From: Gammaproteobacteria bacterium AqS3
GTDB taxonomy: Bacteria; Pseudomonadota; Gammaproteobacteria; MEIF01; AqS3
Direction of reading: 5' to 3'
DNA: 64,000 nt
Assembly: GCA_001750645.1 (NCBI GenBank)
Contig: MEIF01000001.1
Span: 9,179-73,178, forward strand
Shown here: piece after piece, positions 6,575 to 23,779 of the stretch
Numbering within the stretch: position 1 is the first letter of the stretch
Layout: each line of letters begins with the position of its first letter
Program-made: the position numbers and the translations under genes
Notes under the pieces: model-generated
Seen by the model: only the letters and a program-made list of their open reading frames with translations
The model's database searches: none
What the model was told of the DNA's origin: nothing

Positions 6575-8641
6575 TCAGTTGATAAGATGAATCTCAGTCC
6601 CCGACCGCATTATTCTCTGTGGCATCGGGGGAATTTCACGCTCCGATTTAATGGTCGCGGCTCCGTCCTTACCAATCTCTAAATCGTACCGCCTGCCCGT
6701 ACCATCCGAGGCACCTGACAAGCGTCGGCATAACACATCCGCAAGAGCGGAATCTTCGACCACACAAATTATCTGCCTATCATCAAGACAAATTGCTGCC
6801 AACAACTCGATTAAGTGGATCGCCCGAAAATCATCGATATGTTGAACAGGATCATCCAAAATAAGTGTGCGTAAAGGCGTCCAAGGACGAGCCAGATATA
6901 CAGACAATAAAACCGCCAAACCAAGCACACGACGCTGTCCACTACTAAAGAAAAATTGAGGATTAAGTCCTTCACCCACTTCCAGACTTAGAGACCGTCG
7001 CAAGTTTCCACGCATACTGTATTTAATGAAACGCCAGTCATGATGCGGGCGCAAACGCTGGTATAACTCCTCCAGAAGAGGACTAATTTGAGCCAATCGC
7101 TCCTTGGTTATTTCATCCAAAATACTGCGCACACCACGCTCCATAGCTTTTGCCTTATCTAGAGCACTTTCGGATTTTTCCACCTGAAATGCTGCTGCAT
7201 CCACTTCCTTCCTTAAGATTTCCACACGATCCTCAAGCAAAGAAATATTCACGACAGTTTGTGATGCCTCAAGCGTGAGCAATGCCCTTTCCAAATCAAT
7301 GAGACGCTCCCTCTCTGCTGCAACATACTTGTCCGCTGCTTGGGGATCTTGAATGAGCTGAAAATCCAAACCATAAAGTTCAAATACTTCCTTATGCTCC
7401 TGTTGCAAAGAAACAAGACGAGATTCTTCTTCTTGGATCTCAGACCACTTTTCTTGTAGCCGCATTAGTTCATCCGTCTTTTCATTAACTATGTCACGTG
7501 CTTCATCCATTTGCTGCTGGGCAACCGCAAATCCAGCGGAAAGAGATTCCATTCGTTCACGTGCGGATACAAGACCAGCTAAGAACTCTTCATCGGTTCT
7601 TGCAGCCGAACAAAGTGGACAGTTTTCACCATGCAAACCAATCTTTTCACCGTGTTCGACAATCAAAGCAAGCGACGCAGCAAAAGAGTTAGCTTCCTTT
7701 TCAATGCTAAAGATGCGTTGCTTGTCTTCAAAAATATCATCTGCTTCAGCTTTTAATTTCTTGGCGAGTTCAAGCCGATCTTTTACGACTTCTCGAGCAG
7801 CTACAGTTTCTTTTTTATCAAATTCTCTTTGATCCTCCAAAATCTTATAGCCTCGTCTGATCATCTCATTTATGCGTGCAAGATGTCTTTGACCTTCTAT
7901 CAAAGCAGAACGTCCAGAAATAATATACGATGTAATATCTTTGAAATCATCAGATGTTGCAGCATCCAAGGTTTGTTTCGCGACCGCAATATCTTCTGTT
8001 TCAACAATATCCTCTTTTGCTTCAGACAACTGGGCCAATGCATCTGTAAGCTGGTTATGCGCATCGCTATATGCTTTTTGGTTGAGTTTATGTTTAGCTT
8101 TTATATTCTCAAGTATATTTTGGGCTTTAGCTACAAAATCAGTTTTCTGGACAGCACCAAGTGCTGAATGCACGCGTTTAAAATGTTCCGTTTCACTGAG
8201 ATCGAGACCAAGTGCAGAAATCCATTCGTCGCGTATGATCAAAGATTGACAGAGTTGATGAAGAGCATCGTCTGGTTTAACTCTGTAACAGAGAGCATTC
8301 TCGATTTCCTTTAACTCTTTGTCAGCTTTGTTTCCAGATTTTTTTGTTCTGGTAATGGAAAAATTTTTATTGTCGCCATTCTTAAATGATACTGTTACAT
8401 AATGATTATTTGGGCTTCCTTCGCCTCGCCACCATAAATAATCACTAATACTTTCTTTTGCCGATTTTCCGAAAGCATATTTATTGATGGATCCAGTTAG
8501 GGCAAATTCCACAGCATCAAGAAGCGTACTCTTTCCCACACCATTACGCCCAGTGATAACAGTAAATCCCGAACCAAAAGTGACGCGAATTTTTTCGCGA
8601 TATCCACGAAAACCACAGATCTCAACATAATCTAGTTTCAC
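6575..8641 (-). CDS. SMC/Rad50-like ABC ATPase with a long coiled-coil, LmuB/DdmC-like
   Basis: N-terminal Walker A ITGRNGVGKSTLLDAVEFAL. Several hundred residues of coiled-coil heptads. C-terminal signature FFSSGQRRV and Walker B/D-loop LILDDPVQHIDD. It is the last gene of a three-gene operon that begins with a SIR2 protein. Confidence 0.75.
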   Translation of the reverse strand: MKLDYVEICGFRGYREKIRVTFGSGFTVITGRNGVGKSTLLDAVEFALTGSINKYAFGKSAKESISDYLWWRGEGSPNNHYVTVSFKNGDNKNFSITRTKKSGNKADKELKEIENALCYRVKPDDALHQLCQSLIIRDEWISALGLDLSETEHFKRVHSALGAVQKTDFVAKAQNILENIKAKHKLNQKAYSDAHNQLTDALAQLSEAKEDIVETEDIAVAKQTLDAATSDDFKDITSYIISGRSALIEGQRHLARINEMIRRGYKILEDQREFDKKETVAAREVVKDRLELAKKLKAEADDIFEDKQRIFSIEKEANSFAASLALIVEHGEKIGLHGENCPLCSAARTDEEFLAGLVSARERMESLSAGFAVAQQQMDEARDIVNEKTDELMRLQEKWSEIQEEESRLVSLQQEHKEVFELYGLDFQLIQDPQAADKYVAAERERLIDLERALLTLEASQTVVNISLLEDRVEILRKEVDAAAFQVEKSESALDKAKAMERGVRSILDEITKERLAQISPLLEELYQRLRPHHDWRFIKYSMRGNLRRSLSLEVGEGLNPQFFFSSGQRRVLGLAVLLSVYLARPWTPLRTLILDDPVQHIDDFRAIHLIELLAAICLDDRQIICVVEDSALADVLCRRLSGASDGTGRRYDLEIGKDGAATIKSEREIPPMPQRIMRSGTEIHLIN

Positions 8642-9213
8642 TTTTGTTCCAACAGCATCTTCGCAATTTCTTCAGAATTTTGATCACCAAGAAATGCATT
8701 CAGAACATCATCGGAGACACTACTCAATCTTGAACGAAACTTATCCTCAAAACCTGCATCTGAGAAAATTGGCTTGGCTTTAATTTCAGTAATAGGTAGC
8801 AAGGCATACTCAATATCTTTTGATGTATTTATATTGACACGAGCAATTTTCCGAGTCAGAGAAAAATCCTCCTCAATCTGTTCAACTTCACGCTGCCTAG
8901 ATTGATCTTTGTCTCCAGTCAAAAAGACAGAATAAACATTCCAAGCTTTATCTCCAGACATACGAAGTGCTGCACTATGCGAACTAAGTGCTTTTTGTTG
9001 TTCAAATTTCCATTTAGAAATAAGCTCTTCCGCAGATGAGAACACATAAATAAAGCCCATAATAGTTGCGCTTTCAAAACAAGTTATTGAATGTGAATTA
9101 TCAGAATACCATGACCAAGTGTCGTAACCAGAACCCCGGAGATATATTTCGGATTGTCTTGCGATATCCATTACAACTCCAACCGTTCTTGAGCTTGTTT
9201 GAAAGTTAACCAC
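8638..9213 (-). CDS. small protein of unknown function, LmuC/DdmB-like by position
   Basis: 191-aa ORF. Its stop overlaps the downstream SMC start by 4 nt (ATGA). It lies between the SIR2 and SMC genes. Confidence 0.5.
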   Translation of the reverse strand: MVNFQTSSRTVGVVMDIARQSEIYLRGSGYDTWSWYSDNSHSITCFESATIMGFIYVFSSAEELISKWKFEQQKALSSHSAALRMSGDKAWNVYSVFLTGDKDQSRQREVEQIEEDFSLTRKIARVNINTSKDIEYALLPITEIKAKPIFSDAGFEDKFRSRLSSVSDDVLNAFLGDQNSEEIAKMLLEQK

Positions 9214-10550
9214 CGCTCCTCAGCGGTCGTTCTCAATATGTTATCCGAACTTCCTCGGCCAATTATATTTCCAGGCATACCAGTCTCCTCAGCTCCCACT
9301 GCAACAAAAATATTAGCCAGGGAAGATGCCGGCGGTTCAACAGGGAAACGCTCTGCCACACTACTTATTGACTCCCCCGCACCATTAATCACTCTGATTG
9401 AATGTTCTTTCAACGTATAGCCCTCTCGCTGCTGTTGCGCACCTGCTTTCCGCAAAAGCAGGTGAAAGCATCCCAACATTTTACTTCTAATCTTGTCTGG
9501 ACATTTTTTAGTTGCAGGCTTCCTATTAGGCACTCCTTCTGCATCTCTACGCCAAGAATACAGGTCTTCGCTACTCAGCGATGAATCAACAGACAGCCAA
9601 TTTTGATTGAAGTCCAATGTAGTTCTCTGCTCAAATTCATCTCGACCTGCTGCCATTAGTTGCCGTAGATAACTCTCAGAAAATGCCCTCCGTAATTCGT
9701 CAAGCACTTCAGCCCCCGAACCCCTCACATGGGCAAAATCAATATTCGGCTGGTGCAGAAGTGCCCAGAGTTCAGGAGCCTTTTCCTCAAGAGCTTTTTT
9801 CTCTAAAAGATCAATCACTGTAACCGATTTCGGATCGGTTCCTTGAAGAGCATCAGCAATAATCTGATTAAGATAGCACCAATCAGACCAGAAACCAACT
9901 ACAAGCAGGTCCTTCTGACTCAGATTAGTTCGCATCCAATTTTTATTTTTTTCAATGCGATCAGAAATGTTTGAATTATCAAGTTGTGATTGTGTCCATA
10001 CAGTGGAAATGCGATCAAGTCTTAAGCAGCCGTGCAACTTCAAGAGCGGGGCTTGAGAGCGAGAATAATTTACCGCTTGTTCTCCATCTAGAGAACCTCG
10101 AAAATCTGCCCCATATTTCTGTGCACCTCGCTCAATTAATTCATCAAAGTTGCAAGAAAGGCAGGCAACAGCCGCTCTTGTGATCAAAAGATCTGCTATC
10201 GCAGAATGACCAAAATTAGGGTGGCTCGCAAATTCGTCCCATGGAACTAAGTTTTCAATGAAGTACACGAGTCCATTCTGTTCTTCATTAGAAAAATGTT
10301 CTGCCAGCGCCTCCAGATTCAGACGAAGTTCAGGTGACATATCTGAATCCGTGCTATCCCGATATTTATCAAAGCATATCTCGGCAATACGACTCGCGCA
10401 AGGCAGATTGCTTGGTTCAGCCATAGACAGACCGGCACCACAAAGCACTACCAATCGGTCAGCATCTATAGATCTCAGCAACCGTTTTCGAATTTTAGGA
10501 CATAACAGAGGCTCATTCATACTTGAAAACTCTTGTCTGAAGCTTCCCAA
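9171..10550 (-). CDS. SIR2-like (SIR2_2 type) domain protein, putative Lamassu LmuA-type effector
   Basis: LVVLCGAGLSMAEPSNLP resembles the GAGxS...P NAD-binding motif, and LLKLHGCL resembles the sirtuin HG motif. First gene of the SIR2 / small / SMC operon. Confidence 0.6.
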   Translation of the reverse strand: MGSFRQEFSSMNEPLLCPKIRKRLLRSIDADRLVVLCGAGLSMAEPSNLPCASRIAEICFDKYRDSTDSDMSPELRLNLEALAEHFSNEEQNGLVYFIENLVPWDEFASHPNFGHSAIADLLITRAAVACLSCNFDELIERGAQKYGADFRGSLDGEQAVNYSRSQAPLLKLHGCLRLDRISTVWTQSQLDNSNISDRIEKNKNWMRTNLSQKDLLVVGFWSDWCYLNQIIADALQGTDPKSVTVIDLLEKKALEEKAPELWALLHQPNIDFAHVRGSGAEVLDELRRAFSESYLRQLMAAGRDEFEQRTTLDFNQNWLSVDSSLSSEDLYSWRRDAEGVPNRKPATKKCPDKIRSKMLGCFHLLLRKAGAQQQREGYTLKEHSIRVINGAGESISSVAERFPVEPPASSLANIFVAVGAEETGMPGNIIGRGSSDNILRTTAEERWLTFKQAQERLEL

Positions 10551-10652
10551 AGTGGCCTATCTTAATCTATCTAGACATTGGAAGGGAAGATATCCAAGCA
10601 ATGAGAGAAAACGATTCTTATATTTGAATGCTATAACTTCTCAGTTTCTGTT

Positions 10653-11174: not shown

Positions 11175-11315
11175 TTTATACTCCTGGTATTTAACTCAAA
11201 CCAATCGGGATGATCAGTTTACCAGTCATCTCGGGATTCAAATAAATCGCTGTAATATCAAAAAGCCTCAGCACAAAATTAATCCAACAGCGAGCATGTT
11301 GCGAATGTAATTACC

Positions 11316-12794
11316 CTAAGAAGTCAACTTTATTAGTCTCTTATATCGCGAGTCATCTTCGAACTGAGGCTGGACTCTTACTATCATTTCAAGACAATCT
11401 TTGAGATGCCCTTTTGATATTTGAGGAACCTTTGCATCAATAATGAGAGCTAAGAAGTCTAAAGTTTCTGCAGGCTTGATTCCACATAACTCTGACTTAT
11501 GCAACTCGTAAATCTGGTCGGAAGGCACATCCGCTGTAATAGGGACCAACCAATCGCGAAGGAGATTTAGTGCTTCGGGAAAGTTCTCATGCGCCGCAAC
11601 ACACAAACGGCCCAGACCTTCAGAAATATCAGCATGTTCATCAGGAGTCAAATTCCCCGGATTTTCTGGCCAAATTGCTTTCAAGTAGGGAGCAATCCGA
11701 TTCAACCAATAATCAGCACGCTGATCACCCGCATCTCTCAGTGTTCTCACTAACGTCTGAGTCACCTTTTGCAGACCATCCGGCGGCAGAAGGCGAGTAG
11801 CCTCGGCCAACTCGGAATTGAGGAAATTACCATCAGGGTTTAGGGCAGTGACAGTGATGAAATCAGCATATTGCCTACCGTGTGTTCCCAGAGCTTGATA
11901 ATGATTTACAGTGTCAAGAACGTTGTGCTTGATAGCCTCCATCAAAGGAGGATAAACGTAGGGGTTCAACAAGAATCCTCTCCAAATCGAGGCTGCTTCA
12001 TCTGGAAATCGATCCCAATCAAACAAAGGAAGCAGATATAAATCTGTCCATTCCTTATCCACAGTAAATAGCGCATCAGCATAGTTGGCAAGTATCACAC
12101 GACCATGGCGGTATTGTTGGATCTGTAAATCACACAACTTGGTGAATACAGGCTCAAGCTCGCTCGGTAACTTTTGACCTTCTTTGGGCGGCCACCGATA
12201 CCACCAACGAAACAGTGCTTCTGTCACATCTCCCACTGGATGATTGATAGCGCAAAAGACAGGATCTTCGCTATGTATCAAGATTTTATGTTCTATGGCA
12301 AGTATTCGCTTTACTAGTGAGAAAAAATGTGTTTCATCTTTTTCAAAGCTTTTGGCCATCAGCCATAACCACCGACTGATTTCCTCGGCAATGTCAGGCA
12401 ATTTATCGTCTGGAATACCAGCCAATAGAACAGCCATTTTGCCCCAAGATTTGTGAATGACCTCCTCCTCAGGCCAAGACTGAAAAGCTTCGTGCCAGAA
12501 CATAAGCCGCCAGTTATCTTTATCAGCCAGCTCACATAAGGCATCAGCTGTCGCATCAAAATCGTCGCGACATTTTTTCCGCCAATCTTCTCGCGCATGC
12601 GTATTGGTGACAGAATGTTTATTGAGCCAAACAATCAGTTTTTGAACTTTAACAGAATGAGATTCATCATTCTTACTTCCCTTAGAGTAACGGCGAGAGA
12701 GCTCCTCAAGCTTTCTCCTAGATTCTTCACTCAAATCTATACCTGAAGCCTTCATCTCTGACAACCTCAACCAGATTTCTCGATCCTTACTCAT
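11316..12794 (-). CDS. C-terminal half of DSR2-like protein, unit 3, helical partner domain
   Basis: Homologous to the C-terminal third of the 1242-aa fused protein and to 14979..16772. Shared blocks are INHPVGxxTEAL..WWYR, KYRHGRV.LA, LLPLF.W and YADFITV.AL. It is in the same frame as the upstream SIR2 ORF, separated by TAG + AAC. Confidence 0.7.
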   Translation of the reverse strand: MSKDREIWLRLSEMKASGIDLSEESRRKLEELSRRYSKGSKNDESHSVKVQKLIVWLNKHSVTNTHAREDWRKKCRDDFDATADALCELADKDNWRLMFWHEAFQSWPEEEVIHKSWGKMAVLLAGIPDDKLPDIAEEISRWLWLMAKSFEKDETHFFSLVKRILAIEHKILIHSEDPVFCAINHPVGDVTEALFRWWYRWPPKEGQKLPSELEPVFTKLCDLQIQQYRHGRVILANYADALFTVDKEWTDLYLLPLFDWDRFPDEAASIWRGFLLNPYVYPPLMEAIKHNVLDTVNHYQALGTHGRQYADFITVTALNPDGNFLNSELAEATRLLPPDGLQKVTQTLVRTLRDAGDQRADYWLNRIAPYLKAIWPENPGNLTPDEHADISEGLGRLCVAAHENFPEALNLLRDWLVPITADVPSDQIYELHKSELCGIKPAETLDFLALIIDAKVPQISKGHLKDCLEMIVRVQPQFEDDSRYKRLIKLTS

Positions 12795-12797
12795 GTT

Positions 12798-14915
12798 CTA
12801 CTCCTCAAACTCTGAATCGTGATTAGCCGGCCCTGCGATAATCGCCTCCTCAAGCCTCTTGAACTCATCTGGATTTAGCCTCTTCGGGAGTACCCTGAGT
12901 AACTCCAGAACTTCAGGTTCACTTTCCGAAGCCCAGAGCCATTTACCCTCCTCTTCCAAAAGCCAATCTAAAGCGATACTAGCAGGGATTGCGTCACCTT
13001 GAGCGGCAGCGAACAACGCGAGCCTTTGAAAAAGCGGGCAAGGTTCAGTCCACCAAGATATTGCCTCAGCAGTCGCCTTATATGTCGACTGCCTTTCCAA
13101 GGCTAGCCAAGCATTACGGATAGGGTCTATCAACGTCATCCAATCGTGAATATTATCATCTCGAGAATGCTCATTGATCGAAGTCTGTCGAATATATACC
13201 AATCCACTTTCTTGATTTGCGGACTCAGTTTTCTGGATAAGATTAAAAGCATTTCGTAATGAATCAGTAAATTCAGGCAGAAGTGTCGGCAACGCCGATA
13301 TCCATTGTTCTTCATTATTAAGCTCCATCAAAGAATCAGTATTTCCGCCTGCCAAAGCAACCTCCCAATAAATCAAAACTCCCTCATCCTCGGGCACTTG
13401 TCCCCTAGCCAATTTATCAAAATCGCGCAACAATATGCGCGGGTTCAGAAGTTTCCGAAGCTCTTGAAGTGAGAATTTAGTCAGCCCATCAAGCCTAAAT
13501 TCGTTACACCAGATCTGAAAAGACCGACTCCGCCCTTCACGTCTAATACTCCTTTCAATCAACCGCTCCCAAAGTTCTCGCATGAACGGATTGAAGCCGC
13601 CTTCATCCCTACTATCATTAGTCTCTCCATCAATCAGCTTATATAGATGCCTGCGAAAAAACCAAGAAAATTTCTCGCGTAATTCACTGCCATCATTGGC
13701 GAGCCATTCCAGCAGTCTTGGATCATTAAAGTGACTAGTTAACCAAGAAATCAGGGGCTTCTGCATTTCATTCGCTGTTCTTTCTTGAACTCGTGTATCG
13801 GTAACGTTCGTTAAAGACTCCTTGAATCTTCGATTTTCAGCCATGGGCTTCAACCAAGCTAAAGAGTGAGCCGGATTCGACTGTGCGAAGCATTCAGATG
13901 GTTTGCCACTAGGATCTCTTAGTACCCATAACATTAAACCGACAAAGTAGCTCTCCGGGGTGTTATTAATAGGGTCGTAATGGACATACTTTTTAACGAT
14001 ATTCACTTTACCTTGCTCTTTTTCATCATAAATTTTTGCCCACTCTTTTAGCGTCTCATGTAGGAGAGTATGTTTAGGATCGGCATAGTACAAAATAGGT
14101 GTGACATTTTTAGCATTCCATTTATCGGCTGTCTGTTCCCTTTCATCAATTTTATGATCTGCAAAAGCAAACATTTCTCTAGTCGGTTCTCCAAGCAGAC
14201 TGTCCGCAGCGAGCGCATCAGTCATGTAACGTATCACTGGATCATTAAGACTATAACCGACAAAGCAAATGATGTATCTACGAAACAACTCGCTCACAAA
14301 ACGAGCCGCCCAACGTTCTGTAAGATATGCCCGACCAAAATCTCCGCTGGAAAGCACCAAGGAATCCAGATCGTCCTCTGTAGGCTCTTGCATCAAAAGG
14401 CCATGCAAATAAACCAGTCCATCCCATCCCTCTTTAGGCACAGGTAATAATGGTGCTTGAAAAGTCTTGGACAGCATCGAACTATCATCATTCATTACCG
14501 TTTCAAATAGACGGTCAAAGTTGGTAGTAACCAAGCGCATGCGGGATTTCTTTTTTGGCTGCTCCCGCGTCTTACTGAGTTTTAACAGTGAATTGTGAGT
14601 TGCAGTCGCATCTGGACAATTAAGTTTGGGCTTCAAAATATCAGGCAGTATGTCTCGCACTTTCTTGCGCCCAAAACGCTGGTTTTTCTCCAACAAATGA
14701 ATGGCACTATCAAATCGCTCCTTATCTATTTCCGATTGTGGCAAAGGGTCATTTGCATCTGAAAACTGATTTACAAGCTGCTGTGCCAAGCAAGCAAAAT
14801 CAGGTAACTTAGCTGAGCGGGATATTCCAGCACCGCAGAAGAACACCACATTGCCCTTCTCATGCTCATCCAATAGATGCTCAGGAATGTCAGGGCCGTT
14901 TTCAGTAAATTGCAT
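12798..14915 (-). CDS. DSR2-like SIR2 (NADase-type) domain protein, N-terminal half of unit 3
   Basis: N-terminal motifs VVFFCGAGIS..LP.F, LVTTNFDRLFE and LVYLHGLL, the SIR2_2 pattern seen in DSR2/ThsA. The C-terminus ends ...ALDWLL..WLW..LLRVL..IIAGP, which is part of the shared linker region. Confidence 0.8.
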   Translation of the reverse strand: MQFTENGPDIPEHLLDEHEKGNVVFFCGAGISRSAKLPDFACLAQQLVNQFSDANDPLPQSEIDKERFDSAIHLLEKNQRFGRKKVRDILPDILKPKLNCPDATATHNSLLKLSKTREQPKKKSRMRLVTTNFDRLFETVMNDDSSMLSKTFQAPLLPVPKEGWDGLVYLHGLLMQEPTEDDLDSLVLSSGDFGRAYLTERWAARFVSELFRRYIICFVGYSLNDPVIRYMTDALAADSLLGEPTREMFAFADHKIDEREQTADKWNAKNVTPILYYADPKHTLLHETLKEWAKIYDEKEQGKVNIVKKYVHYDPINNTPESYFVGLMLWVLRDPSGKPSECFAQSNPAHSLAWLKPMAENRRFKESLTNVTDTRVQERTANEMQKPLISWLTSHFNDPRLLEWLANDGSELREKFSWFFRRHLYKLIDGETNDSRDEGGFNPFMRELWERLIERSIRREGRSRSFQIWCNEFRLDGLTKFSLQELRKLLNPRILLRDFDKLARGQVPEDEGVLIYWEVALAGGNTDSLMELNNEEQWISALPTLLPEFTDSLRNAFNLIQKTESANQESGLVYIRQTSINEHSRDDNIHDWMTLIDPIRNAWLALERQSTYKATAEAISWWTEPCPLFQRLALFAAAQGDAIPASIALDWLLEEEGKWLWASESEPEVLELLRVLPKRLNPDEFKRLEEAIIAGPANHDSEFEE

Positions 14916-14978
14916 TTGAACTTATGGAATCAGGATGTGACTACAAAATAACCGGACAATATTACAGCAAGCCATATC

Positions 14979-16772
14979 TTAACCACCACCATGTTGGCGA
15001 GCCAAAGTATTCAATCTCACATATTGAGGATGCTTTTTAAGATGCGGTGCTTCATCCCGTATCGCATCAAGACAGCTCCTAAGTTGATCTACCGGTAAAT
15101 ACGGTATCTCGTTCTTGACAATCAAATCCAAAAACTCCAGTGCCTTGTCCGGATGATTTTTACAGAGGCCAGAATCATTAAGGGCATCGATTTGGTAGGA
15201 ATGGTCGGTTCTAATTGCACCCAACCAAGACCGAAGAAGATCGAATGCTTCTGGAAAGTTCTCTTCTGCCGCGATACATAAACGGCCTAGGTTTTCAGAG
15301 ATTTCAGGATCAACTCCCTGATTATCCTGTGGCCATATATCCTGTATGTAGGGAACAATTCGATTCTGCCAACAATCCCTCCGCTGCTCTCGCGAACCTT
15401 CAAGCACTTCCCATAATGTTTGAGCCGACCTACTTAAACCTTCTTTTGGAAGTTTTTTAATAGCCTTTGCCAGCTCTTTCTTTGTGAATGTTTCGCCCGC
15501 ATCAAGAGCAAGGAAAGTAAGGAAATCAGCATACTGACTACTGTGATCGCCCAAATCACCATAATGGTCTGGTTCTGCTGTATCAAGAAAATCGGCTTTG
15601 AGAGCATCCATCAGAGGAAGATATAAGCGGGGTGTCCAAAGAAAACTCCTCCAAGCCAAGTAAGCTTCTTGCGAAGATTTCCAGCTGAATAAGGGCAACA
15701 AATTTTCATGCGTCCACTTAGGATCAACCCTGAATATCGTGATGACATTGTCAGCTAGGAACACACGGCTATGACGATATTTTTTAATTTCGATGTTACA
15801 TAACTCAGTAAATATTGATCTAACTTTTTCATCTAATCCAAGATTATCTCTAAGTGATTGGCGATACCACCAGAATATTAATGCTTCGGTTGCATGCCCA
15901 ATTGGGTGGTTAATAGCTTCTCCGACAGGATCTTTTCTATGCTCATCATCTTCATTGTCAAAGTTAACAATCTCAACATTAGCTGCTTTTACGTTCTCAT
16001 GATCCGAACTGAGAATTCGTTCCACAAGCTCGAAAAAATATTCTTCTTGCCCATCAAGCACTTTGGCAATGTCCCGCAACCATAAACTAACATAACGAAC
16101 AAGATCTGGGAATACATCCTCTGGAACTTTAACTAAAGTCCAAGCCAACTTCTCCCAAGATTCTTGGAAACGCTTTTCTTCCGACCAAGCCCGCAGGGCG
16201 TCTCGCCAGCGCACAGAGCACCAATGATTCTCTTTAGCTAGTGCACACAAAGCATCAGAGGTCAAAGCGAAATTGTCCCGGCAACGCTGCCGCCAGTCAT
16301 CTCGCTGTAGGCCATCCGTGCCAGGGTTCTGTTTGAGCCACTTAATGAGTTCAGGGAGCGTGCTCGGTGTGGTGGTAAATTCAGTTGCCTCGTCACCTTC
16401 ACTCACCCGGAAAGAAAATTCGTCTCTTTGATCCTCTGACAGCTCCCACTCTGGATGCTGACTAGAAATATCTTTCAGCTGATCTTTAGCAATTTCACTC
16501 AAATCTGCTCCTGCTTCCTCCATTTTTGCCAGACGAAACCAAATGTTCATGTCTCTATATCTGCGCCAGTACTCAGGGTCAATACCCTCTCCATAAAGGG
16601 CGCGGGGCGGGCCTGCAAGAATGGCTTGTTCTAGCTCAGCCAGCAAGTCTTGTTCAAGTTTCGGTGCGAGTGACACCAGCAAACGCATAACTTCTCGCTT
16701 GGTTTCAGGGACCCAAAGCCATCGGTGCTCACTATCCAAGAGCCAGCCCAATGCACGACGATTAGAAATCAT
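14979..16772 (-). CDS. C-terminal half of DSR2-like protein, unit 2
   Basis: Start chosen at MISNRR, where the ATG overlaps the upstream TGA as ATGA at 16769-16772. The track's longer ORF is an N-terminal extension. The protein begins with the linker block RALGWLL..HRWLW..VMRLLVSL..ILAGP and continues through the same conserved blocks as unit 3 and the fused protein. Confidence 0.7.
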   Translation of the reverse strand: MISNRRALGWLLDSEHRWLWVPETKREVMRLLVSLAPKLEQDLLAELEQAILAGPPRALYGEGIDPEYWRRYRDMNIWFRLAKMEEAGADLSEIAKDQLKDISSQHPEWELSEDQRDEFSFRVSEGDEATEFTTTPSTLPELIKWLKQNPGTDGLQRDDWRQRCRDNFALTSDALCALAKENHWCSVRWRDALRAWSEEKRFQESWEKLAWTLVKVPEDVFPDLVRYVSLWLRDIAKVLDGQEEYFFELVERILSSDHENVKAANVEIVNFDNEDDEHRKDPVGEAINHPIGHATEALIFWWYRQSLRDNLGLDEKVRSIFTELCNIEIKKYRHSRVFLADNVITIFRVDPKWTHENLLPLFSWKSSQEAYLAWRSFLWTPRLYLPLMDALKADFLDTAEPDHYGDLGDHSSQYADFLTFLALDAGETFTKKELAKAIKKLPKEGLSRSAQTLWEVLEGSREQRRDCWQNRIVPYIQDIWPQDNQGVDPEISENLGRLCIAAEENFPEAFDLLRSWLGAIRTDHSYQIDALNDSGLCKNHPDKALEFLDLIVKNEIPYLPVDQLRSCLDAIRDEAPHLKKHPQYVRLNTLARQHGGG

Positions 16773-18706
16773 GAGCTTTCTGCCAAAGCTAAAAATACAA
16801 GCCTGCGAAATATTGGGTAACGAATACCCCACCAACGCTCCACCTCCATGGCTGCTTGCTCAGGGGATTCTTCTTTCAGAGCAATCCACGCATCCCAGGT
16901 CAGATCAATTAATGCAGTCCAATCATGAAAAGCTCTGTTTTGGGAATGCCTGCTAATGGATGGTTGATAGATATAGGACATGTCATTCATATCATCAGCC
17001 GCTTCAAGCCCCCTCATAAGATCAAGCACCGAACGCAACAAACTAGTAAATTCGGGCAGAAGTTCCGGCAGTGCTTTCTGCCACTGAGGATCATTAGAAA
17101 GTCTTTTGACAGCATCATGGACATTACCCGCTGATAATTTAATCTCCCAATTAACTAGGTCGTTGATGTGTTGAGGTTTTTCACCATCAGCATTCTCGAT
17201 CGAACCGCGGAATGGCTCGCTTAACGATATATATGGGGTCAGATTTTTTCTAAGTTCTCGACGCGAGGTCGGAGTGAACCCATATCGCTTGAATCGATCA
17301 TGCCAAAGATACATATCAAAGTTGCGTGCTCCGGGCTTAACACATCCTGTCATCAAGAGGCACCAAAGTTTCCACATTAATCGACTGGGAATACCATTGG
17401 GAGAATTTTGACGAATACGCCTCAATTCATCAATTTTACGCTTGTTTTTCAGCTCAGACAACTCGTTCAATCTATCTTCGATTAATCTCACAAATCTATC
17501 ATCCAATCTGTCACCGTACTGAGAAAGCCAAAGTAATAATCGCGGATCATTAAGATGACGTGTCAACCAGGGCATCAATTGTCGTGTCACATCGTCCCAA
17601 TTACCTCTTTGAACACCTGTTTCAAAGATATTGGTCAGGGGGCTTAGGTACAGCCAATCTAAAAATGGTGCCGAGTTATGCTCAGAAAAGCGTTTGGCAG
17701 GCAGGCCGGTAGGATCCTTCAAAGCCCATAACATCCGAGCAATAAAGTTATCCTCTTGAGTGCTCTCTCTGGGTTTTGTGCGAGCAAGTTCAATGACGAT
17801 CTGTTCCTTGCCTCTCACTCCATCACGATAAGTTTCAGCCCACCGCAATAAGGTCTTATGCAAGTAAGTGTGGCCACTATTTTCAAGGTACAAAATAGGT
17901 CTAACACTCTTTGCCTCCCATTCATGTCGAGACTGCTCTTCTTCATTTTCTGCATGGCTGCCAAAGGCAAAGACCTCTCTTGACATATTTTCAGGCGAAC
18001 GATCAGCGGCAAGTGCATCCATCATATAACGCAGCATTGGATCGCCAATGCTATACCCAACAAAACATACGGTGTAATTGCGAAACAATTCACTTAGAAA
18101 ACGTGCCGCCCAGCCATCTCTAAGATATGCCCTTCCAAAATCACCACTTGAAACAATTAAATCTCCCTGATTATCCCTGGGCCATTGTCCCGTCAAAAGA
18201 CCATGCAGATAGACCAATCCATCCCACTGATCATCTTTTGGAATGGGTAGCAGCGGTGCCTGAAAACGGTCGACTTTCAGTAATCTCTCGGCAATTGCTT
18301 TTTCAAATAGACGATCAAAGTTAGTCGTGACTAAATGCATAGAATTGCTGCGCGTCTTACCCAGTGTCAATAGAGCTTCGTGTGTGTCAGTGGGAGCATC
18401 AAGGCGTACCTTCAAAATATTGGCAAGTCCTTTTCTAATGGTTTTGGAACCGCCAGCTATATATTTTTCCATCAGATTAATAGCAATATCTAATTGACTA
18501 TCACAAATCGCCCTATTAATGGTGTCCCTGATTTGAGGATCAACCCTATCTGAAAAATTGTCATATAGCTTCCTTACCAACCCATCAAAACCCGGCAATC
18601 CAGCTGGATAGGAAATTCCAGCACCGCAGAAGAACACCACTCGACCATCCTCGTGTGCTTGTAACAAGGATTCTGGAATATCGGGGCCGTTGGGGATAAA
18701 TTGCAT
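16769..18706 (-). CDS. DSR2-like SIR2 domain protein, N-terminal half of unit 2
   Basis: MQFIPNGPDIPESLL, VVFFCGAGISYPAGLPGF, LVTTNFDRLFE, LVYLHGLL. Ends FRRLVFLALAESS, just before the linker block. Confidence 0.8.
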   Translation of the reverse strand: MQFIPNGPDIPESLLQAHEDGRVVFFCGAGISYPAGLPGFDGLVRKLYDNFSDRVDPQIRDTINRAICDSQLDIAINLMEKYIAGGSKTIRKGLANILKVRLDAPTDTHEALLTLGKTRSNSMHLVTTNFDRLFEKAIAERLLKVDRFQAPLLPIPKDDQWDGLVYLHGLLTGQWPRDNQGDLIVSSGDFGRAYLRDGWAARFLSELFRNYTVCFVGYSIGDPMLRYMMDALAADRSPENMSREVFAFGSHAENEEEQSRHEWEAKSVRPILYLENSGHTYLHKTLLRWAETYRDGVRGKEQIVIELARTKPRESTQEDNFIARMLWALKDPTGLPAKRFSEHNSAPFLDWLYLSPLTNIFETGVQRGNWDDVTRQLMPWLTRHLNDPRLLLWLSQYGDRLDDRFVRLIEDRLNELSELKNKRKIDELRRIRQNSPNGIPSRLMWKLWCLLMTGCVKPGARNFDMYLWHDRFKRYGFTPTSRRELRKNLTPYISLSEPFRGSIENADGEKPQHINDLVNWEIKLSAGNVHDAVKRLSNDPQWQKALPELLPEFTSLLRSVLDLMRGLEAADDMNDMSYIYQPSISRHSQNRAFHDWTALIDLTWDAWIALKEESPEQAAMEVERWWGIRYPIFRRLVFLALAESS

Positions 18707-18876
18707 CTGAATCTAAGAAAATGAAATAGAACCCTACATTTGACAACAAATCTCTTGCAGGCTGTCTATATGTGCTACAGACGAACAGGCAATTCTACAC
18801 CCACTATTTGGCAATTCTCCATAGCACTTAAAACCTTTATTGACCTAAGTAATAGGATCACGCAAAAAACAGAAGG

Positions 18877-20050: not shown

Positions 20051-23000
20051 TTAGCTGCCCTTTCGCTCTCGAACAAAATTCATCAGCTTTTCATATTGAT
20101 CGTTCTCTTTAACAAGTCTAGGTGCCTCTGTTCGTATGACCTTAAGACAAGTTTCAAGTTCATCCTCTGAGATCCAAAGGGTTTCATTTCCGATGACACG
20201 GTTCAAAAAATCTAGTGTTTTATCTGGATAGGTTTTACACCAATCTGATTGACTAAGAATATGAACCAAGAAAAAAGGATCTGATAATGTCTGAAGGAAT
20301 GGACTAATAAAATCAAAAATCTCCGGAAACAACTCTTTATCTACCATGCACAAGCGACCAAGACTTTCGGAAACTCCATCTAAAATATTCCCATTCTGTT
20401 TGGGAAAAATATTTTGCAAATAAGGTTTGATTTGATTTTCCCAACAGTCTTTTATTTCAACTTCCGGAGATTGCAGTGTTCTCTCTAATGCTTGAACCGC
20501 TCTTTGCAAACCTTCTGACGACAGTTTGCTAGTCACCTCTTTCAACTCTTCGTTATTGAATGTGCCATCCGGGTGGAGTGCAATAACAGTGATGAAATCA
20601 GCGTATTGGCCACTATGTTCGCCGAGCTTGTGGTAATGATTCACAGTGTCAAGAACATCGTGTTTGATTGAGCTCATTAAAGGAGGATATACGTAAGGAG
20701 ACCCCAAGAATCCTCTCCAAACGCAAGCCGCCTCGTCAGGAGATTTATCCCAGCTAAATAACGGTGACAGATGCTGGGCCGCCCAATCTGGATCCACGCC
20801 AAATAAAGTGCCCGCATAGTCGGCCAGCACCACACGGCCATGACGATATTTTTCTACATCTGTATTGCTGCATAACTCAGTGAAAATTGGCTTGATTTTC
20901 TCAGGTAATCCTTGATTGGGTTTGAGCGCCTGTCGATACCACCAACGTATCAGTGCCTCAGTAACACAGCCTACGGGATGATTTATGGCATCCAGGACAG
21001 GATCTCTGTCTATTTCCTCATCAAACCCAAGTTCTTCAGCGGTAAAATGCTTAACTCTTGGATCATCTTTGTCCTTTAGATTAAGGATTCGGTTTACAAG
21101 AGTGAAAAAATACTCCTCGTGCTCTTTAAAAGTTTTTGCAGTGGCCTCTAACCATCGAGCAACTTCAGTAGAGGTATCTTGAAGCACTTCTTCTGGGACA
21201 TTAATCAAAATCGGTGCCAGTTTGTTCCAAGATTTGTAAAGAAGTTCTCCCTCCGACCAAACCTGCAAGGCTTTATTCCAGCGTCTAGACGACCAATTAT
21301 TTTCTCCAGCCAACATGGATAGCAAATCAGATGCCGTATCAAACTCGTCACGACAATATTGCTCCCAATTGTCTTGTTTCCAAGGATTGGTGTCAGGGTT
21401 CTGCCTGAGGTATTCGATCAACTTCAAGCTGTTGCGAGGCATCTCAACTTGTTCAGGCTTCTGCGCTCCTTCACTGGTCCAGATAGGAAACTCATCACTC
21501 TCATCTTCCTGTAACTCCCATTCTGGATGATCAGCTTCAAGATTATCCAGCCGCTCTCTAGCTTGTTCACCTAAAACAACACCTGCATCAGCAATCTTTG
21601 CCAGTCTGAGCCAAATAGCCCCATCTTTGATCAGCTCGCGATGCTCAGGCTCAATATCATTCTGAAGCATGGCATCAGGCAAGCCGGCAAGAATCACGCT
21701 CTCCAGCTTCTCCAATCCTTCCGGCATCTCTTCTTGAAGCTTGGGAGTAAGTACCCTCAATAAACGCATGACTTCTCGTTTGGCATCAGACCCCCAAAGC
21801 CATCTGTATTCATCTGCCAAGAGCCAGTCCAATGCCAGATGGTTAGGTATTACCTCGTCTTGCGCTGCAGCGAAAAAGGCGAGCCTGCGAAACAATGGAT
21901 AAGGTATGTCCCACCAAGATTTCGCTTCCCTAGCGGCATGCTCAAGTGATTCCTCTGATGTCTCCTTCAAAGCGAGCCAGGCATCACGGACCAGATCAAT
22001 CAACACCGTCCAATCGTAGTAATTTTTGTTCTGGGGATGTCTACTGATCGAGGGCTGATATATGTAGGACAGATCTCGTTCACTATTTGCCCCCTCAAGT
22101 TCTTCCATAAGTTCGAGAGTATCTCTCAGTAGATTAGTAAATTCTGGCAAGAGTTCAGTGAGCTCAGATTTCCACAACTCATACTCACTAAGTTCTTTGA
22201 TGTATGAATGAACTTTGCCAACAGACAAGGTAATTTCCCAATTAACCAAATCTTTGATGCACTCAGGTTCACGCCCTTTATCATCAACCGTCCGATATGA
22301 CGGTTCACGCAGCAGTATACACGGCGACAGATTCTCACGAAGTTCCCGACGTAAAGTTAACGTAAGTCCATCCTGCTTGAATCGTTCACACCAGTGATGC
22401 ATGCGATACATATCACGATGGCCGGTCTTGGATTTGACATTTCCAGCAAGTAGCAGACGCCAAAGTTTCTGCATTGGCAAGTCCAGAATCCCATTGGGTA
22501 AATTTTCACGAATGTTTTTTAGCTTCGCTGCGTCACCATTACCTTCAAATCCGACCAGTACATCCAGACGGTTTTCAATTAGCCTGGTAATCTCATCATA
22601 TAGCGGCCCGTCGCGCTGAGAGAACCAAATCAGCAGTTTGGGATCATTAAGATAACGCATTAACCGGAGCCCCAGTTGCGGCATTACTTTTTTCCAATTA
22701 TTTCCCTGAGAACCTGCGTCTGCAATCTTTATCAAAAGTGGCAGCTGATCAAAAGAATCAATGGAATCAAGCTCATCAAAGCTCTCGGCGGGCAGATCTC
22801 TAGAATCACTTAATGCCCATAGCATTCGATCAACAACGGTATCTTCTTTGACACTTTCCAAGGGAGGAATTCTTACAGATGCGACGACAACCTGCTCCTT
22901 ACCCTGCACACCATCACTATACGCTTGTGCCCAGATTTTTAACGTTTCATGCAAACATTCATGCTCAGCATCTTCGCAATACAAAATAGGTTGAACGCCT

Positions 23001-23779
23001 TTAATGCCCCACTCATTTTCGACCTTTTCTTTCCCATCGCTTTTATAGCCTCCAAATGCATATATCGACGGCGATGTGCCTTTAATATCTAAAGAATCTA
23101 TAACATAACCTAGCACCCTATCACCAACGCTATGTCCTACAAAACAGATTACATATTTCTTGAATAATTCACGCAAAAAACTTGTTGCCCAATTATCATC
23201 ACCCATATATGCAAAACTAAAATCACGACTTGACAAAATCAGACGATCCAGTTCTGTAGCTATGGGTATATTACTTAAAAGGCCATGAATATAAATCAGT
23301 CCATTCCATCGATTTTTTAGAGAAGGCAGCAAAGGAGGCTGAAAACGTTCAACAGATAACGCCCCCTTATCAATTGCTCTTTCAAACAGACGGTCATAAT
23401 TGGTGGTGATCAAGCGCGTGCAATTATCTCGATTCCTACCAAGCGTAAGCAGTGCCTCGTGAGTTGCTATCTCATTCTGCATATCAGGTTTGGGGGTCAG
23501 AATATTTGGAAGCTCTCGTCTCACCATCTCTCGACCATTGAATGTATTTTTCTCCAGCAAGTGAATGGCCTTATCAAAATCACCAGCTTCTATTGCCAAT
23601 CTGGGCGCTGGATCATTAGGATCTTCAAATTTGGCCAAGAGCTGTTTCGCTAGACATTCATAGCCCGGCAAGCCTGCTTGGAAAGAAATCCCAGCACCGC
23701 AAATAAACACCACACGCCCATCCTCATGAGCTTGCAACAGATGCTCAGGAATATCAGGGCCGTTCGGGACAAATTTCAT
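20051..23779 (-). CDS. DSR2-like defense sirtuin, full-length fused form (SIR2 N-domain + long helical C-domain), unit 1
   Basis: 1242 aa. N-terminal MKFVPNGPDIPEHLL, VVFICGAGISFQAGLPGY, LITTNYDRLFE, LIYIHGLL. The middle carries the linker block LALDWLLADEYRWLW..VMRLLRVL..ILAGLP. The C-terminal blocks are INHPVGCVTEALIRWWYR, KYRHGRVVLADYA and YADFITVIALHPDG. It is collinear with the sum of the two split units. Confidence 0.8.
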   Translation of the reverse strand: MKFVPNGPDIPEHLLQAHEDGRVVFICGAGISFQAGLPGYECLAKQLLAKFEDPNDPAPRLAIEAGDFDKAIHLLEKNTFNGREMVRRELPNILTPKPDMQNEIATHEALLTLGRNRDNCTRLITTNYDRLFERAIDKGALSVERFQPPLLPSLKNRWNGLIYIHGLLSNIPIATELDRLILSSRDFSFAYMGDDNWATSFLRELFKKYVICFVGHSVGDRVLGYVIDSLDIKGTSPSIYAFGGYKSDGKEKVENEWGIKGVQPILYCEDAEHECLHETLKIWAQAYSDGVQGKEQVVVASVRIPPLESVKEDTVVDRMLWALSDSRDLPAESFDELDSIDSFDQLPLLIKIADAGSQGNNWKKVMPQLGLRLMRYLNDPKLLIWFSQRDGPLYDEITRLIENRLDVLVGFEGNGDAAKLKNIRENLPNGILDLPMQKLWRLLLAGNVKSKTGHRDMYRMHHWCERFKQDGLTLTLRRELRENLSPCILLREPSYRTVDDKGREPECIKDLVNWEITLSVGKVHSYIKELSEYELWKSELTELLPEFTNLLRDTLELMEELEGANSERDLSYIYQPSISRHPQNKNYYDWTVLIDLVRDAWLALKETSEESLEHAAREAKSWWDIPYPLFRRLAFFAAAQDEVIPNHLALDWLLADEYRWLWGSDAKREVMRLLRVLTPKLQEEMPEGLEKLESVILAGLPDAMLQNDIEPEHRELIKDGAIWLRLAKIADAGVVLGEQARERLDNLEADHPEWELQEDESDEFPIWTSEGAQKPEQVEMPRNSLKLIEYLRQNPDTNPWKQDNWEQYCRDEFDTASDLLSMLAGENNWSSRRWNKALQVWSEGELLYKSWNKLAPILINVPEEVLQDTSTEVARWLEATAKTFKEHEEYFFTLVNRILNLKDKDDPRVKHFTAEELGFDEEIDRDPVLDAINHPVGCVTEALIRWWYRQALKPNQGLPEKIKPIFTELCSNTDVEKYRHGRVVLADYAGTLFGVDPDWAAQHLSPLFSWDKSPDEAACVWRGFLGSPYVYPPLMSSIKHDVLDTVNHYHKLGEHSGQYADFITVIALHPDGTFNNEELKEVTSKLSSEGLQRAVQALERTLQSPEVEIKDCWENQIKPYLQNIFPKQNGNILDGVSESLGRLCMVDKELFPEIFDFISPFLQTLSDPFFLVHILSQSDWCKTYPDKTLDFLNRVIGNETLWISEDELETCLKVIRTEAPRLVKENDQYEKLMNFVRERKGS

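What the first reader, a model, noticed from the sequence alone, without database searches (positions are those of the whole stretch)
16769..16772. Unit 2 split is a frame change with an ATGA stop/start overlap
The SIR2 half ends ...FRRLVFLALAESS-TGA and the partner starts MISNRRALGWLL in a different frame, with the ATG overlapping the TGA. This is a different lesion type at a different linker position from unit 3. It argues for two independent fission events of a DSR2-like ancestor. The ATGA overlap suggests translational coupling rather than simple decay.
Basis: partly seen in the sequence, partly recalled or inferred. Interest (0 to 1): 0.6.

Follow-up and report, generated by a model that had tools for sequence, protein, structure and literature searches.

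The report
Split Dsr1 defence gene, overlapping stop/start
One of three tandem copies of the anti-phage sirtuin gene Dsr1 is cut into two genes joined by an ATGA stop/start overlap, and at least three other bacterial lineages have independently cut Dsr1 at the same spot, one of them demonstrably keeping both halves under selection, so this is most likely a working two-gene variant and not a broken gene.

Summary
On the minus strand the 645-aa SIR2 gene (18706..16769) ends ...AESS-TGA. The 597-aa partner (16772..14979) starts ATG-ATT-TCT (MISNRR...) in the -1 frame, sharing ATGA at 16772..16769.

The family is Dsr1, not Dsr2: both halves match the PADLOC Dsr1 model colinearly. The junction equals the fused gene minus one nucleotide, with no residue lost.

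The three units (44-49% identical) group together and share a deletion. Unit 1 is fused. Unit 3 is cut about 70 codons further on by a TGG-to-TAG-type stop, so there were two separate fissions.

The same site is cut with a 4-nt overlap in six other loci. Counting unit 2, that is at least four independent lineages. In one clade both halves evolve at dN/dS 0.13-0.23.

About a fifth of fused genes (16 of 77) carry a latent GTGA at this site. The site lies in a short inter-helix loop of the predicted alpha-solenoid.

Unit 2 has no Shine-Dalgarno sequence, no slippery site and no stimulatory RNA structure. Termination-reinitiation coupling is therefore the best mechanism, but it is inferred.

A sequencing error or a very young pseudogene cannot be excluded, because no independent copy of the locus was found. 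Verdict: a new two-gene variant of a known system, of moderate interest.

The parts
16769..16772 (-). ATGA stop/start overlap. TGA (16771..16769) ends the SIR2 half and ATG (16772..16770) starts the C-terminal half.
   Evidence: Read directly from the sequence.
16769..18706 (-). Unit 2 upstream gene, 645 aa: SIR2 NADase domain plus the first part of the helical sensor (Dsr1 family positions 1 to about 642).
   Evidence: Pfam SIR2_2 E=4.8e-25. PADLOC Dsr1 PDLC02183 E=4e-222. The TTNFD and YLHG motifs are present.
14979..16772 (-). Unit 2 downstream gene, 597 aa: the rest of the helical sensor (Dsr1 family positions 643 to 1242).
   Evidence: PADLOC Dsr1 E=2.9e-165, model positions 688-1273. Colinear with fused unit 1. 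1824 relatives in the representative library, and most of the 150 best-scoring are fused proteins of 1200-1290 aa.
20051..23779 (-). Unit 1: intact single-gene Dsr1 (1242 aa), the fused paralogue used as the reference for coordinates.
   Evidence: PADLOC Dsr1 E=0 over the full length. GenBank MBF2753687.1.
12798..14915 (-). Unit 3 upstream gene (705 aa, SIR2 plus a longer part of the sensor), ending at TAG 12800..12798.
   Evidence: The TAG aligns with TGG (W) of unit 2 and with a conserved W of the family.
11316..12794 (-). Unit 3 downstream gene (492 aa), starting at ATG 12794 in the same frame as the upstream gene, one codon after the stop.
12801..12806 (-). GAGGAG Shine-Dalgarno-like hexamer, 6 nt before the unit 3 downstream ATG.
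   Evidence: Anti-SD duplex of -8.8 kcal/mol against an in-gene background mean of -2.8.
16833..16835 (-). Alternative TTG start of the downstream frame, giving a 618-aa product that overlaps the upstream gene by 67 nt. It is probably not used.
   Evidence: It is preceded by GGAGGTGGAG (-10.6 kcal/mol). However, the 21-aa extension is an out-of-frame reading of the conserved ...EVERWWG... motif and has no homology to Dsr1.

Best explanation
Unit 2 is a genuine two-gene form of the anti-phage sirtuin Dsr1. A 1-nt deletion between family codons 642 and 643 put a TGA in frame for the upstream part (SIR2 NADase plus the first third of the alpha-solenoid sensor). It left an ATG as the first codon of the remaining sensor, so the two cistrons share ATGA.

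The inferred mechanism is as follows. There is no Shine-Dalgarno sequence, promoter or terminator at the junction. Ribosomes terminating at UGA would therefore re-initiate on the overlapping AUG and make the two halves in linked amounts from one mRNA. The halves would then re-stack across the cut inter-helix loop to rebuild the Dsr1 sensor. In single-chain E. coli Dsr1 that sensor recognises a phage major capsid protein and licenses NAD+ depletion.

What is shown:
- the anatomy of the junction;
- membership of the Dsr1 family;
- independent recurrence of the same cut elsewhere, with selective maintenance in one clade;
- the location of the cut in a predicted loop.

What is inferred: translational coupling, heterodimer assembly and retained defence activity of unit 2 itself.
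For: 1. The junction is colinear with fused unit 1. No residue is lost and the sequence equals the fused gene minus 1 nt.
2. The same family position carries a 4-nt overlap, with upstream homology intact to within 1-4 residues of the stop, in six other loci. These are L002, L003, L084 and L085 (GTGA), L083 (GTGA) and L088 (ATGA).
3. These loci, together with unit 2, fall in at least four lineages separated by many fused genes. In the N-half NJ tree, the smallest clade joining any two of the three split lineages sampled there (unit 2, the L002 clade, L083) always holds at least 20 fused taxa in 100 bootstraps. In the C-half tree, which adds the L088 clade, Fitch parsimony needs 4-5 changes. The junction lengths also differ: -1 nt, +2 nt and +5 nt.
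4. In the L002/L003/L084/L085 clade both halves evolve at dN/dS 0.13-0.23 with dS 0.64-1.1. A Dsr1 cut at this site therefore stays under purifying selection.
5. That clade has strong SD sequences at the junction (-10 to -12.7 kcal/mol), against a mean of -3.3 at the same site in 77 fused genes.
6. In fused genes codon 643 is GTG in 21 of 77 loci and ATG in 0 of 77. Unit 2 and L088 have ATG, which suggests start-codon optimisation after the cut.
7. Unit 2 has a single lesion in 3.7 kb of 43-46% GC DNA. It keeps 84% (N half) and 91% (C half) of family-conserved columns, more than the intact unit 1 at 75% and 83%.
8. The AF2 model (pLDDT 87.6) puts the cut in a 7-residue ordered loop between two helices of a continuous solenoid.
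9. There is no promoter or terminator signal at the junction.
Against: - There is no close orthologue of unit 2. The best non-self hit is 54% identical. Selection on unit 2's own halves after the cut could therefore not be measured.
- There is no Shine-Dalgarno sequence before the ATG (-2.6 kcal/mol, equal to background). Efficient translation of the second half is assumed, not shown.
- GenBank gives protein accessions to unit 1 and to both unit 3 halves but to neither unit 2 half. This suggests the annotators called unit 2 a frameshifted pseudogene (inference).
- The island holds other broken-looking genes, such as a type III mod gene frameshifted at a G11 run.
- All three units are unusually divergent from the family, so relaxed selection in this symbiont is possible.
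- The NJ grouping of the three long-branched units could partly reflect long-branch attraction.
Confidence: 0.65

Rival explanations
1. Unit 2 is a very young pseudogene. A natural 1-nt deletion inactivated one redundant Dsr1 copy in a decaying defence island of a sponge symbiont, and the ATGA overlap is incidental.
For: - The lesion is the minimal possible one.
- GenBank appears not to give proteins for unit 2.
- Two paralogues could supply redundancy.
- Random single lesions are seen in other Dsr1 genes: L024, L043, L070, L071, L072 and L078.
- L089 shows that an upstream frameshift can simply run into the latent TGA at this site.
- There is no SD sequence at the junction.
Against: - A random indel in a 3.7-kb gene would have to fall within a few nucleotides of the one site that is independently cut in three other lineages and, in the one clade that could be tested, kept under selection.
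- It would also have to coincide with an ATG that is never seen at that codon in 77 fused genes.
- Unit 2 has no second lesion and is better conserved than the intact unit 1.
- A cut made at this site would be expected to be viable at once, so 'young' does not imply 'dead'.
Confidence: 0.17
2. The frame change is an assembly or sequencing error in the MAG, and the real gene is a fused 1242-aa Dsr1.
For: - The source is a metagenome-assembled genome.
- No independent copy of the locus was found in the protein collection or in the metagenome contigs.
- One extra base would restore a perfect frame.
Against: - The junction is not in a homopolymer; the longest runs are AAA and TTT.
- AqS genomes are described as built from Illumina and Chicago short reads (bioRxiv 10.64898/2026.08.05.743132). 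Whether this applies to this very assembly is an inference.
- The same positional and ATG coincidence argument applies as for the pseudogene rival.
Confidence: 0.07
3. Programmed -1 ribosomal frameshifting, or transcriptional slippage, at the junction produces a full-length fused Dsr1 from the two frames.
For: The downstream frame is -1 relative to the upstream frame, and the two products are exactly colinear with the fused protein.
Against: - There is no X XXY YYZ slippery heptamer before the stop, either in the window (GCA GAA AGC TCA TGA) or in any of the other split lineages.
- The split lineages share no conserved nucleotide motif beyond xTGA.
- The 101-nt region around the junction folds no better than shuffles (z = +0.32).
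- The L002 clade has evolved strong SD sequences, which points to initiation rather than frameshifting.
Confidence: 0.03

Closest known systems
Dsr1 (defence-associated sirtuin 1), a single-gene anti-phage system
   Same: - Both halves of unit 2 match the PADLOC Dsr1 model colinearly, with an N-terminal SIR2_2 domain carrying the TTN[FY]D and HG motifs.
- The rest of the protein is a helical solenoid.
- Dsr1 lowers NAD+ on infection (bioRxiv 10.1101/2021.12.14.472415). The sensor of E. coli Dsr1 is homologous to the Avs7 sensor and is triggered by a phage major capsid protein (PMC13581612).
   Different: - Published Dsr1 is one polypeptide; here it is two cistrons with an ATGA overlap.
- All three AqS3 copies lack 30-40 residues after family position 345.
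- Activity, trigger and assembly are untested here.
- A search for DSR1 + sirtuin + split returned six papers, none with a title or abstract about a split Dsr1; their texts were not read for this.
Dsr2
   Same: It has an N-terminal SIR2 NADase followed by a helical sensor, and the same general logic of sensor-gated NAD+ depletion.
   Different: No PADLOC Dsr2 model matched at E <= 0.01. A Dsr1 profile matches solved DSR2 chains only within the SIR2 domain (residues about 19-220, E = 6e-5). The proteins differ in length (1005 aa against about 1240 aa) and in their sensors.
Translationally coupled gene pairs with ATGA/GTGA overlaps (general bacterial operon feature; from established knowledge)
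   Same: There is a four-base stop/start overlap on one strand, with no intervening promoter or terminator.
   Different: Here the two cistrons are the halves of what is normally one protein. Unit 2 lacks the SD sequence that often accompanies such overlaps. Coupling itself is not demonstrated.
Two-gene Dsr1 loci in metagenomes (L002/L003/L084/L085, L083, L088)
   Same: They are cut at the same family position with the same 4-nt overlap, giving halves of 684-686 aa and 576-580 aa.
   Different: - They are only 44-48% identical to unit 2 and are phylogenetically separate from it.
- L002/L003/L084/L085 and L083 use GTG with an SD-like sequence (-6.9 to -12.7 kcal/mol); L088 uses ATG with a weak one (-4.1), like unit 2.
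- The junction indel differs in L083 (+2 nt) and L088 (+5 nt).

Membership tests
Dsr1 | N-terminal SIR2-like domain with catalytic Asn (TTN[FY]D) and His (LHG) | tested here: met
   Pfam SIR2_2 E=4.8e-25 for the 645-aa gene. VTTNFDRLFE and YLHGLL are present in unit 2. Both columns are invariant in the family alignments.
Dsr1 | Full-length colinear similarity to the Dsr1 profile, including the region after SIR2 | tested here: met
   PADLOC PDLC02183: the upstream gene scores E=4e-222; its match to the second Dsr1 model (PDLC04167) spans positions 1-650 of 1248. The downstream gene matches PDLC02183 positions 688-1273 (E=2.9e-165). The alignment to fused unit 1 has no gap at the junction.
Dsr1 | Single-polypeptide (single-gene) architecture, as described in the literature | tested here: not met
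   There are two ORFs in different frames sharing ATGA. Unit 2 is therefore filed as a two-gene variant, not a canonical member.
Dsr1 | Helical, Avs7-like bilobed sensor | tested here: inconclusive
   The AF2 model of unit 1 residues 340-1242 is an all-helical solenoid (pLDDT 87.6, pTM 0.57). Foldseek against the PDB finds only generic HEAT/ARM solenoids. Homology to Avs7 is taken from PMC13581612 and was not tested here.
Dsr1 | NAD+ depletion and phage defence | not testable with these tools
   This needs expression and infection assays.
Dsr2 | Similarity to Dsr2 profiles or structures beyond the SIR2 domain | tested here: not met
   There was no Dsr2 model among the PADLOC hits. PDB DSR2 chains match only profile positions 19-220.
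Translationally coupled overlapping cistrons | Stop and start codons overlap on the same strand within one transcription unit | tested here: met
   ATGA lies at 16772..16769. No promoter-like or terminator-like site lies near the junction, and counts in the region do not exceed those in shuffles.
Translationally coupled overlapping cistrons | Shine-Dalgarno sequence within the end of the upstream gene | tested here: not met
   The anti-SD duplex is -2.6 kcal/mol, against an in-gene mean of -2.8. By contrast the values are -6.9 to -12.7 in L083 and the L002 clade.
Translationally coupled overlapping cistrons | Downstream translation depends on upstream translation | not testable with these tools
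   This needs reporter fusions with an upstream premature stop or a start-codon mutant.
Programmed -1 ribosomal frameshift site | Slippery heptamer plus a downstream stimulatory structure, conserved among relatives | tested here: not met
   No X XXY YYZ motif occurs in any split lineage. The RNA fold z-score is +0.32.
Decaying pseudogene | Several disabling lesions and loss of family-conserved residues | tested here: not met
   There is one lesion only. Retention of conserved columns is 0.84/0.91, against 0.75/0.83 for the intact unit 1. A pseudogene younger than about the time to the next mutation cannot be excluded.

The most novel reading that the evidence does not exclude
Dsr1 carries a pre-adapted fission site. 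This is a conserved Val-Ile pair, often encoded GTG-ATx, in an inter-helix loop, so that a latent start and a latent stop are already superimposed. Lineages repeatedly convert the one-gene sensor-effector into an effector-plus-half-sensor subunit and a separate sensor subunit. In tandem arrays such as this one (fused, cut at 642 and cut at about 712), the free C-terminal lobes might pair with more than one SIR2 subunit. That would widen the range of phage capsids recognised, a combinatorial immune-receptor logic not described for bacterial sirtuin systems.
Probability: 0.12. Interest if true: 0.7.

Novelty: new variant of a known kind. Interest (0 to 1): 0.45.

Why it matters
Dsr1 is treated as a single-gene system by the literature read here. 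Detection tools that model Dsr1 as one gene, and genome annotation, may therefore miss two-gene forms or call them pseudogenes; neither point was tested here.

Independent cuts at exactly one loop, kept under purifying selection in the one clade that could be tested, mark a natural seam in the roughly 900-residue sensor. This gives experimenters a ready-made way to separate 'SIR2 plus N-lobe' from 'C-lobe'. It could be used to ask how capsid recognition is transmitted to the NADase.

It is also a clean example of convergent gene fission helped by a latent start/stop overlap.

Tried and rejected
- **Close orthologues of unit 2, to test for a sequencing error or measure dN/dS.** None exist; the best non-self hit is 54% identical. 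Exact look-ups of the window proteins gave no contig.
- **Exact DNA scans of metagenome contigs** for the junction (with or without one extra base) and for a flank 60 nt upstream. Both returned 0 hits.
- **Using shared protein end points alone as evidence of a shared cut.** Rejected as unsafe. L089 (P0280) and P0109 end at the same TGA only because an upstream frameshift runs into the latent stop. Only loci checked at DNA level were counted. P0284 and the other members of the P0279 clade remain unverified.
- **Fused-to-split ratio from the search for homologous proteins.** Not usable, because no listed hit exceeds 1121 aa. The representative library shows that fused proteins dominate.
- **Module shuffling.** The nearest relatives of the N and C halves are the same groups for unit 2, L083 and L003, so there is no sign of exchange.
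- **Solved structure for the sensor.** Sequence and profile searches hit only SIR2 domains. Foldseek gave generic solenoids.
- **Promoter or terminator at the junction.** Nothing above expectation.
- **Frameshift-stimulating RNA structure.** None.
- **Alternative TTG start at 16835 with a strong SD sequence.** Judged a by-product of the conserved upstream coding sequence.
Full report
**1. The observation**

All genes concerned lie on the minus strand.
- The sequence reads ...GCA GAA AGC TCA TGA, with ATG ATT TCT AAT CGT CGT starting at the A of TCA.
- ORF 16769..18706 encodes 645 aa ending ...FRRLVFLALAESS.
- The ORF from ATG 16772 to the stop at 14979 encodes 597 aa starting MISNRRALGWLL.
- The four bases ATGA (16772..16769) serve as both stop and start. 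The downstream frame is -1 relative to the upstream one.

**2. The genes**

Three tandem units are present.
- Unit 1 (20051..23779) is 1242 aa in one ORF.
- Unit 2 is 645 + 597 aa.
- Unit 3 is 705 aa (12798..14915) plus 492 aa (11316..12794).

Pfam finds SIR2_2 at each N-terminus. PADLOC identifies all of them as Dsr1. Unit 1 matches the 1275-position model end to end (E=0). The pieces of units 2 and 3 match the corresponding parts colinearly.

No Dsr2 model matched. A Dsr1 family profile matches solved DSR2 structures only inside the SIR2 domain.

The source is the MAG 'Gammaproteobacteria bacterium AqS3', a symbiont of the sponge Amphimedon queenslandica. GenBank has protein records for unit 1 and both unit 3 halves, but apparently none for the unit 2 halves. 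I take this to mean unit 2 was annotated as a frameshifted pseudogene; that is an inference.

**3. Anatomy of the two junctions**

A virtual fusion of unit 2 aligns with unit 1 without any gap:
- Unit 1 reads FRRLAFFAAAQDE-VIPNHLALDWLL.
- Unit 2 reads FRRLVFLALAESS-MISNRRALGWLL.

The split equals the fused gene minus one nucleotide.

Unit 3 is different. It reads GAG TTT GAG GAG TAG AAC ATG, all in one frame. The TAG aligns with TGG of unit 2 and with a conserved family Trp. A GAGGAG Shine-Dalgarno-like sequence lies 6 nt before the ATG.

**4. History of the three units**

- The units are only 44-49% identical.
- In a neighbour-joining tree of 199 N-terminal halves they form one group in 91 of 100 bootstraps.
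- All three lack 30-40 residues that nearly all other members have after family position 345; L063 and L074 are also short there.
- Unit 1 is fused, as were 70 of the 79 genome loci retrieved. That set was selected for the best full-length matches.

One caveat applies: all three units sit on long branches, so the tree grouping alone would be weak. The shared deletion adds support.

**5. Decay or working architecture?**

Unit 2 has no close orthologue; the best non-self hit is 54% identical. It cannot be tested directly, so I looked at the rest of the family.

*The same cut occurs elsewhere.* Several homologues of 684-686 aa end at exactly the same family position. Ten clusters of about 576-597 aa begin exactly there. 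Six loci were checked at DNA level:

| Locus | Overlap | Halves / note |
|---|---|---|
| L002 | GTGA | 686 aa + C half with a second frame break |
| L003 | GTGA | 686 + 578 aa |
| L084 | GTGA | C half cut by contig end |
| L085 | GTGA | C half cut by contig end |
| L083 | GTGA | 685 + 576 aa |
| L088 | ATGA | 684 + 580 aa |

In all six, upstream homology continues to within 1-4 residues of the stop.

One further candidate, L089, proved spurious. There a frameshift further upstream merely runs into the latent TGA. Protein end points alone are therefore not sufficient evidence.

*The cuts arose independently.*
- In the N-half tree, the three split lineages sampled there (unit 2, the L002 clade, L083) are always separated by at least 20 fused genes.
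- In the C-half tree, which adds the L088 clade, parsimony needs 4-5 changes in 100 bootstraps.
- The junction indels differ: -1 nt in unit 2 and the L002 clade, +2 nt in L083 and +5 nt in L088.

Counting unit 2, the cut therefore arose at least four times.

*The cut is maintained.* Within the L002/L003/L084/L085 clade the two halves have diverged to dS 0.64-1.1 while keeping dN/dS at 0.13-0.23. Both cistrons are under purifying selection long after the cut.

**6. Why this site?**

- In fused genes the site is usually Val-Ile. It is encoded GTG-ATx, that is, a latent GTGA, in 16 of 77 loci.
- A one-base deletion just upstream then creates, in one step, a stop for the first part and a start for the second.
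- ATG is never found at this codon in the 77 fused loci, yet unit 2 and L088 have it.
- The L002 clade has strong SD sequences (-10 to -12.7 kcal/mol). The same site in fused genes averages -3.3, and only 1.2% of in-gene positions reach -10.

Both features look like adjustment after the cut.

An AlphaFold2 model of unit 1 residues 340-1242 (mean pLDDT 87.6) is an all-helical solenoid. Site 642/643 lies in a short, confidently modelled loop between the helices PYPLFRRLAFFAA and ALDWLLAD. It is a seam between stacked helices, not a flexible linker. The unit 3 site lies at the next long loop and helix start. The closest solved folds are generic HEAT/ARM solenoids.

**7. Unit 2 itself**

- It has one lesion in 3.7 kb of AT-rich DNA, where a neutral sequence would soon collect stops.
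- The catalytic motifs are intact.
- It keeps 84% (N half) and 91% (C half) of the columns conserved in at least 90% of fused genes. The intact unit 1 keeps 75% and 83%.
- It has no SD sequence before the ATG (-2.6 kcal/mol, equal to background). The starts of units 1, 2 and 3 are equally poor (-3.0, +0.4, -1.0).
- No promoter-like or terminator-like site lies at the junction.
- There is no slippery heptamer and no unusual RNA structure (z = +0.32).

**8. Mechanism proposed**

The two cistrons are transcribed together. Ribosomes finishing the first at UGA restart at the overlapping AUG. The products re-stack across the cut loop to give a two-chain Dsr1.

From the literature:
- Dsr1 lowers NAD+ during infection (bioRxiv 10.1101/2021.12.14.472415).
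- The sensor of E. coli Dsr1 is homologous to the Avs7 sensor and responds to a phage major capsid protein (PMC13581612).

Coupling, assembly and activity of unit 2 are inferred, not shown. I give this reading about 0.65.

**9. Rivals**

| Rival | Probability | Main point |
|---|---|---|
| Very young natural pseudogene | about 0.17 | Needs an unlikely positional and ATG coincidence |
| Assembly error | about 0.07 | Same coincidence needed; site is not a homopolymer |
| Programmed frameshifting | about 0.03 | No supporting feature found |

- The pseudogene and error rivals both need a random indel to land within a few bases of the one site that three other lineages have independently cut, and to coincide with an otherwise unseen ATG.
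- The AqS genomes are described as short-read assemblies.
- Neither the pseudogene nor the error rival could be excluded, because no second copy of the locus exists in the collections searched.

**10. Novelty**

The papers read here present Dsr1 as a single protein. A search for a split form returned no paper with a title or abstract on the subject. This is a new two-gene variant of a known system, together with evidence for a convergent fission hotspot. It is useful for annotation and for dissecting the sensor. It is not a new kind of system.

Noticed in passing
window 27988-27998 (minus strand): A run of 11 G lies inside a type III methyltransferase (mod) gene. The reading frame changes exactly there, splitting mod into ORFs 27982..28833 and 26919..27779. 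This looks like either a phase-variable homopolymer switch caught in the OFF state or a homopolymer sequencing error.
   Followed up: partly
window 26919-32558 and 23849-26974: Three tandem type III mod paralogues sit upstream of a single type III res gene (1041 aa: ResIII helicase plus endonuclease domain). The paralogues are 26919..28833 (frameshifted), 28876..30468 and 30867..32558. This is a second tandem triplication next to the triple Dsr1 array.
   Followed up: partly
window ~6000-35000: The whole defence island is 39-49% GC, while the flanking 36-64 kb is 60-70% GC. This suggests a horizontally acquired block of about 30 kb. The Dsr1 duplications and cuts may therefore pre-date its arrival in AqS3. 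No tRNA gene is present in the window.
   Followed up: partly
window 6575-10550 (minus strand): A Lamassu-like trio is present: an LmuB-like SMC/AAA ATPase (6575..8641), a 191-aa ORF (8638..9213, which itself overlaps the ATPase gene by 4 nt) and a 459-aa SIR2_2 protein (9171..10550). This makes a fourth SIR2 effector in the island.
   Followed up: partly
window 19382-20002 and 18877-19278 (minus strand): A 206-aa protein with a SieB (superinfection exclusion B) Pfam match and an unannotated 133-aa ORF lie in the 1.3-kb gap between unit 1 and unit 2.
   Followed up: no
window 2490-3497 (minus strand): A 335-aa protein matches the PADLOC IetA model (E=2e-76). This may be another defence system at the island edge; no partner IetS was looked for.
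   Followed up: no
window 12794-12806; L086 8222-8238: The unit 3 junction has its own good SD sequence (GAGGAG). Its stop aligns with TGG of unit 2 and with a conserved Trp of the family.

A high-coverage 5.8-Mb genome (L086) splits Dsr1 within about 10 residues of the same place (745 + 523 aa, 17-nt overlap). Several stand-alone C-terminal proteins also start just before the IWLRLAK helix (P0355, P0332, P0181, P0214). This may be a second recurrent fission site.
   Followed up: partly
L054 (OZ244118.1, Candidatus Porisulfidus MAG) 581-19133: This locus holds a tandem array of four Dsr1 paralogues. Three are complete and fused; the fourth runs off the locus. The paralogues are each other's relatives (distances 0.32-0.46) and are not close to the AqS3 units, so tandem Dsr1 arrays have arisen more than once.
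   Followed up: partly
window 20051-23779, 14979-18706, 11316-14915: All three AqS3 Dsr1 copies lack 30-40 residues (consensus ...PLSEERYRHxDLxRFGV...RRPSPY...) that are conserved in almost all other Dsr1 proteins just after the SIR2 domain. They also keep only 75-84% of otherwise conserved N-half positions.
   Followed up: partly
L002 11150-11320; L087 8200-8450; L001 8082-9493: Other broken Dsr1 genes look like plain decay. L002 has a second frame break near family position 1040. L087 has a stop plus a frameshift. L001 is interrupted by an IS (DDE transposase).
   Followed up: no
tool behaviour: the search for homologous proteins listed no protein longer than 1121 aa, although fused Dsr1 proteins of 1200-1300 aa dominate the representative library. 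Length distributions from that tool should not be read as architecture frequencies.
   Followed up: partly
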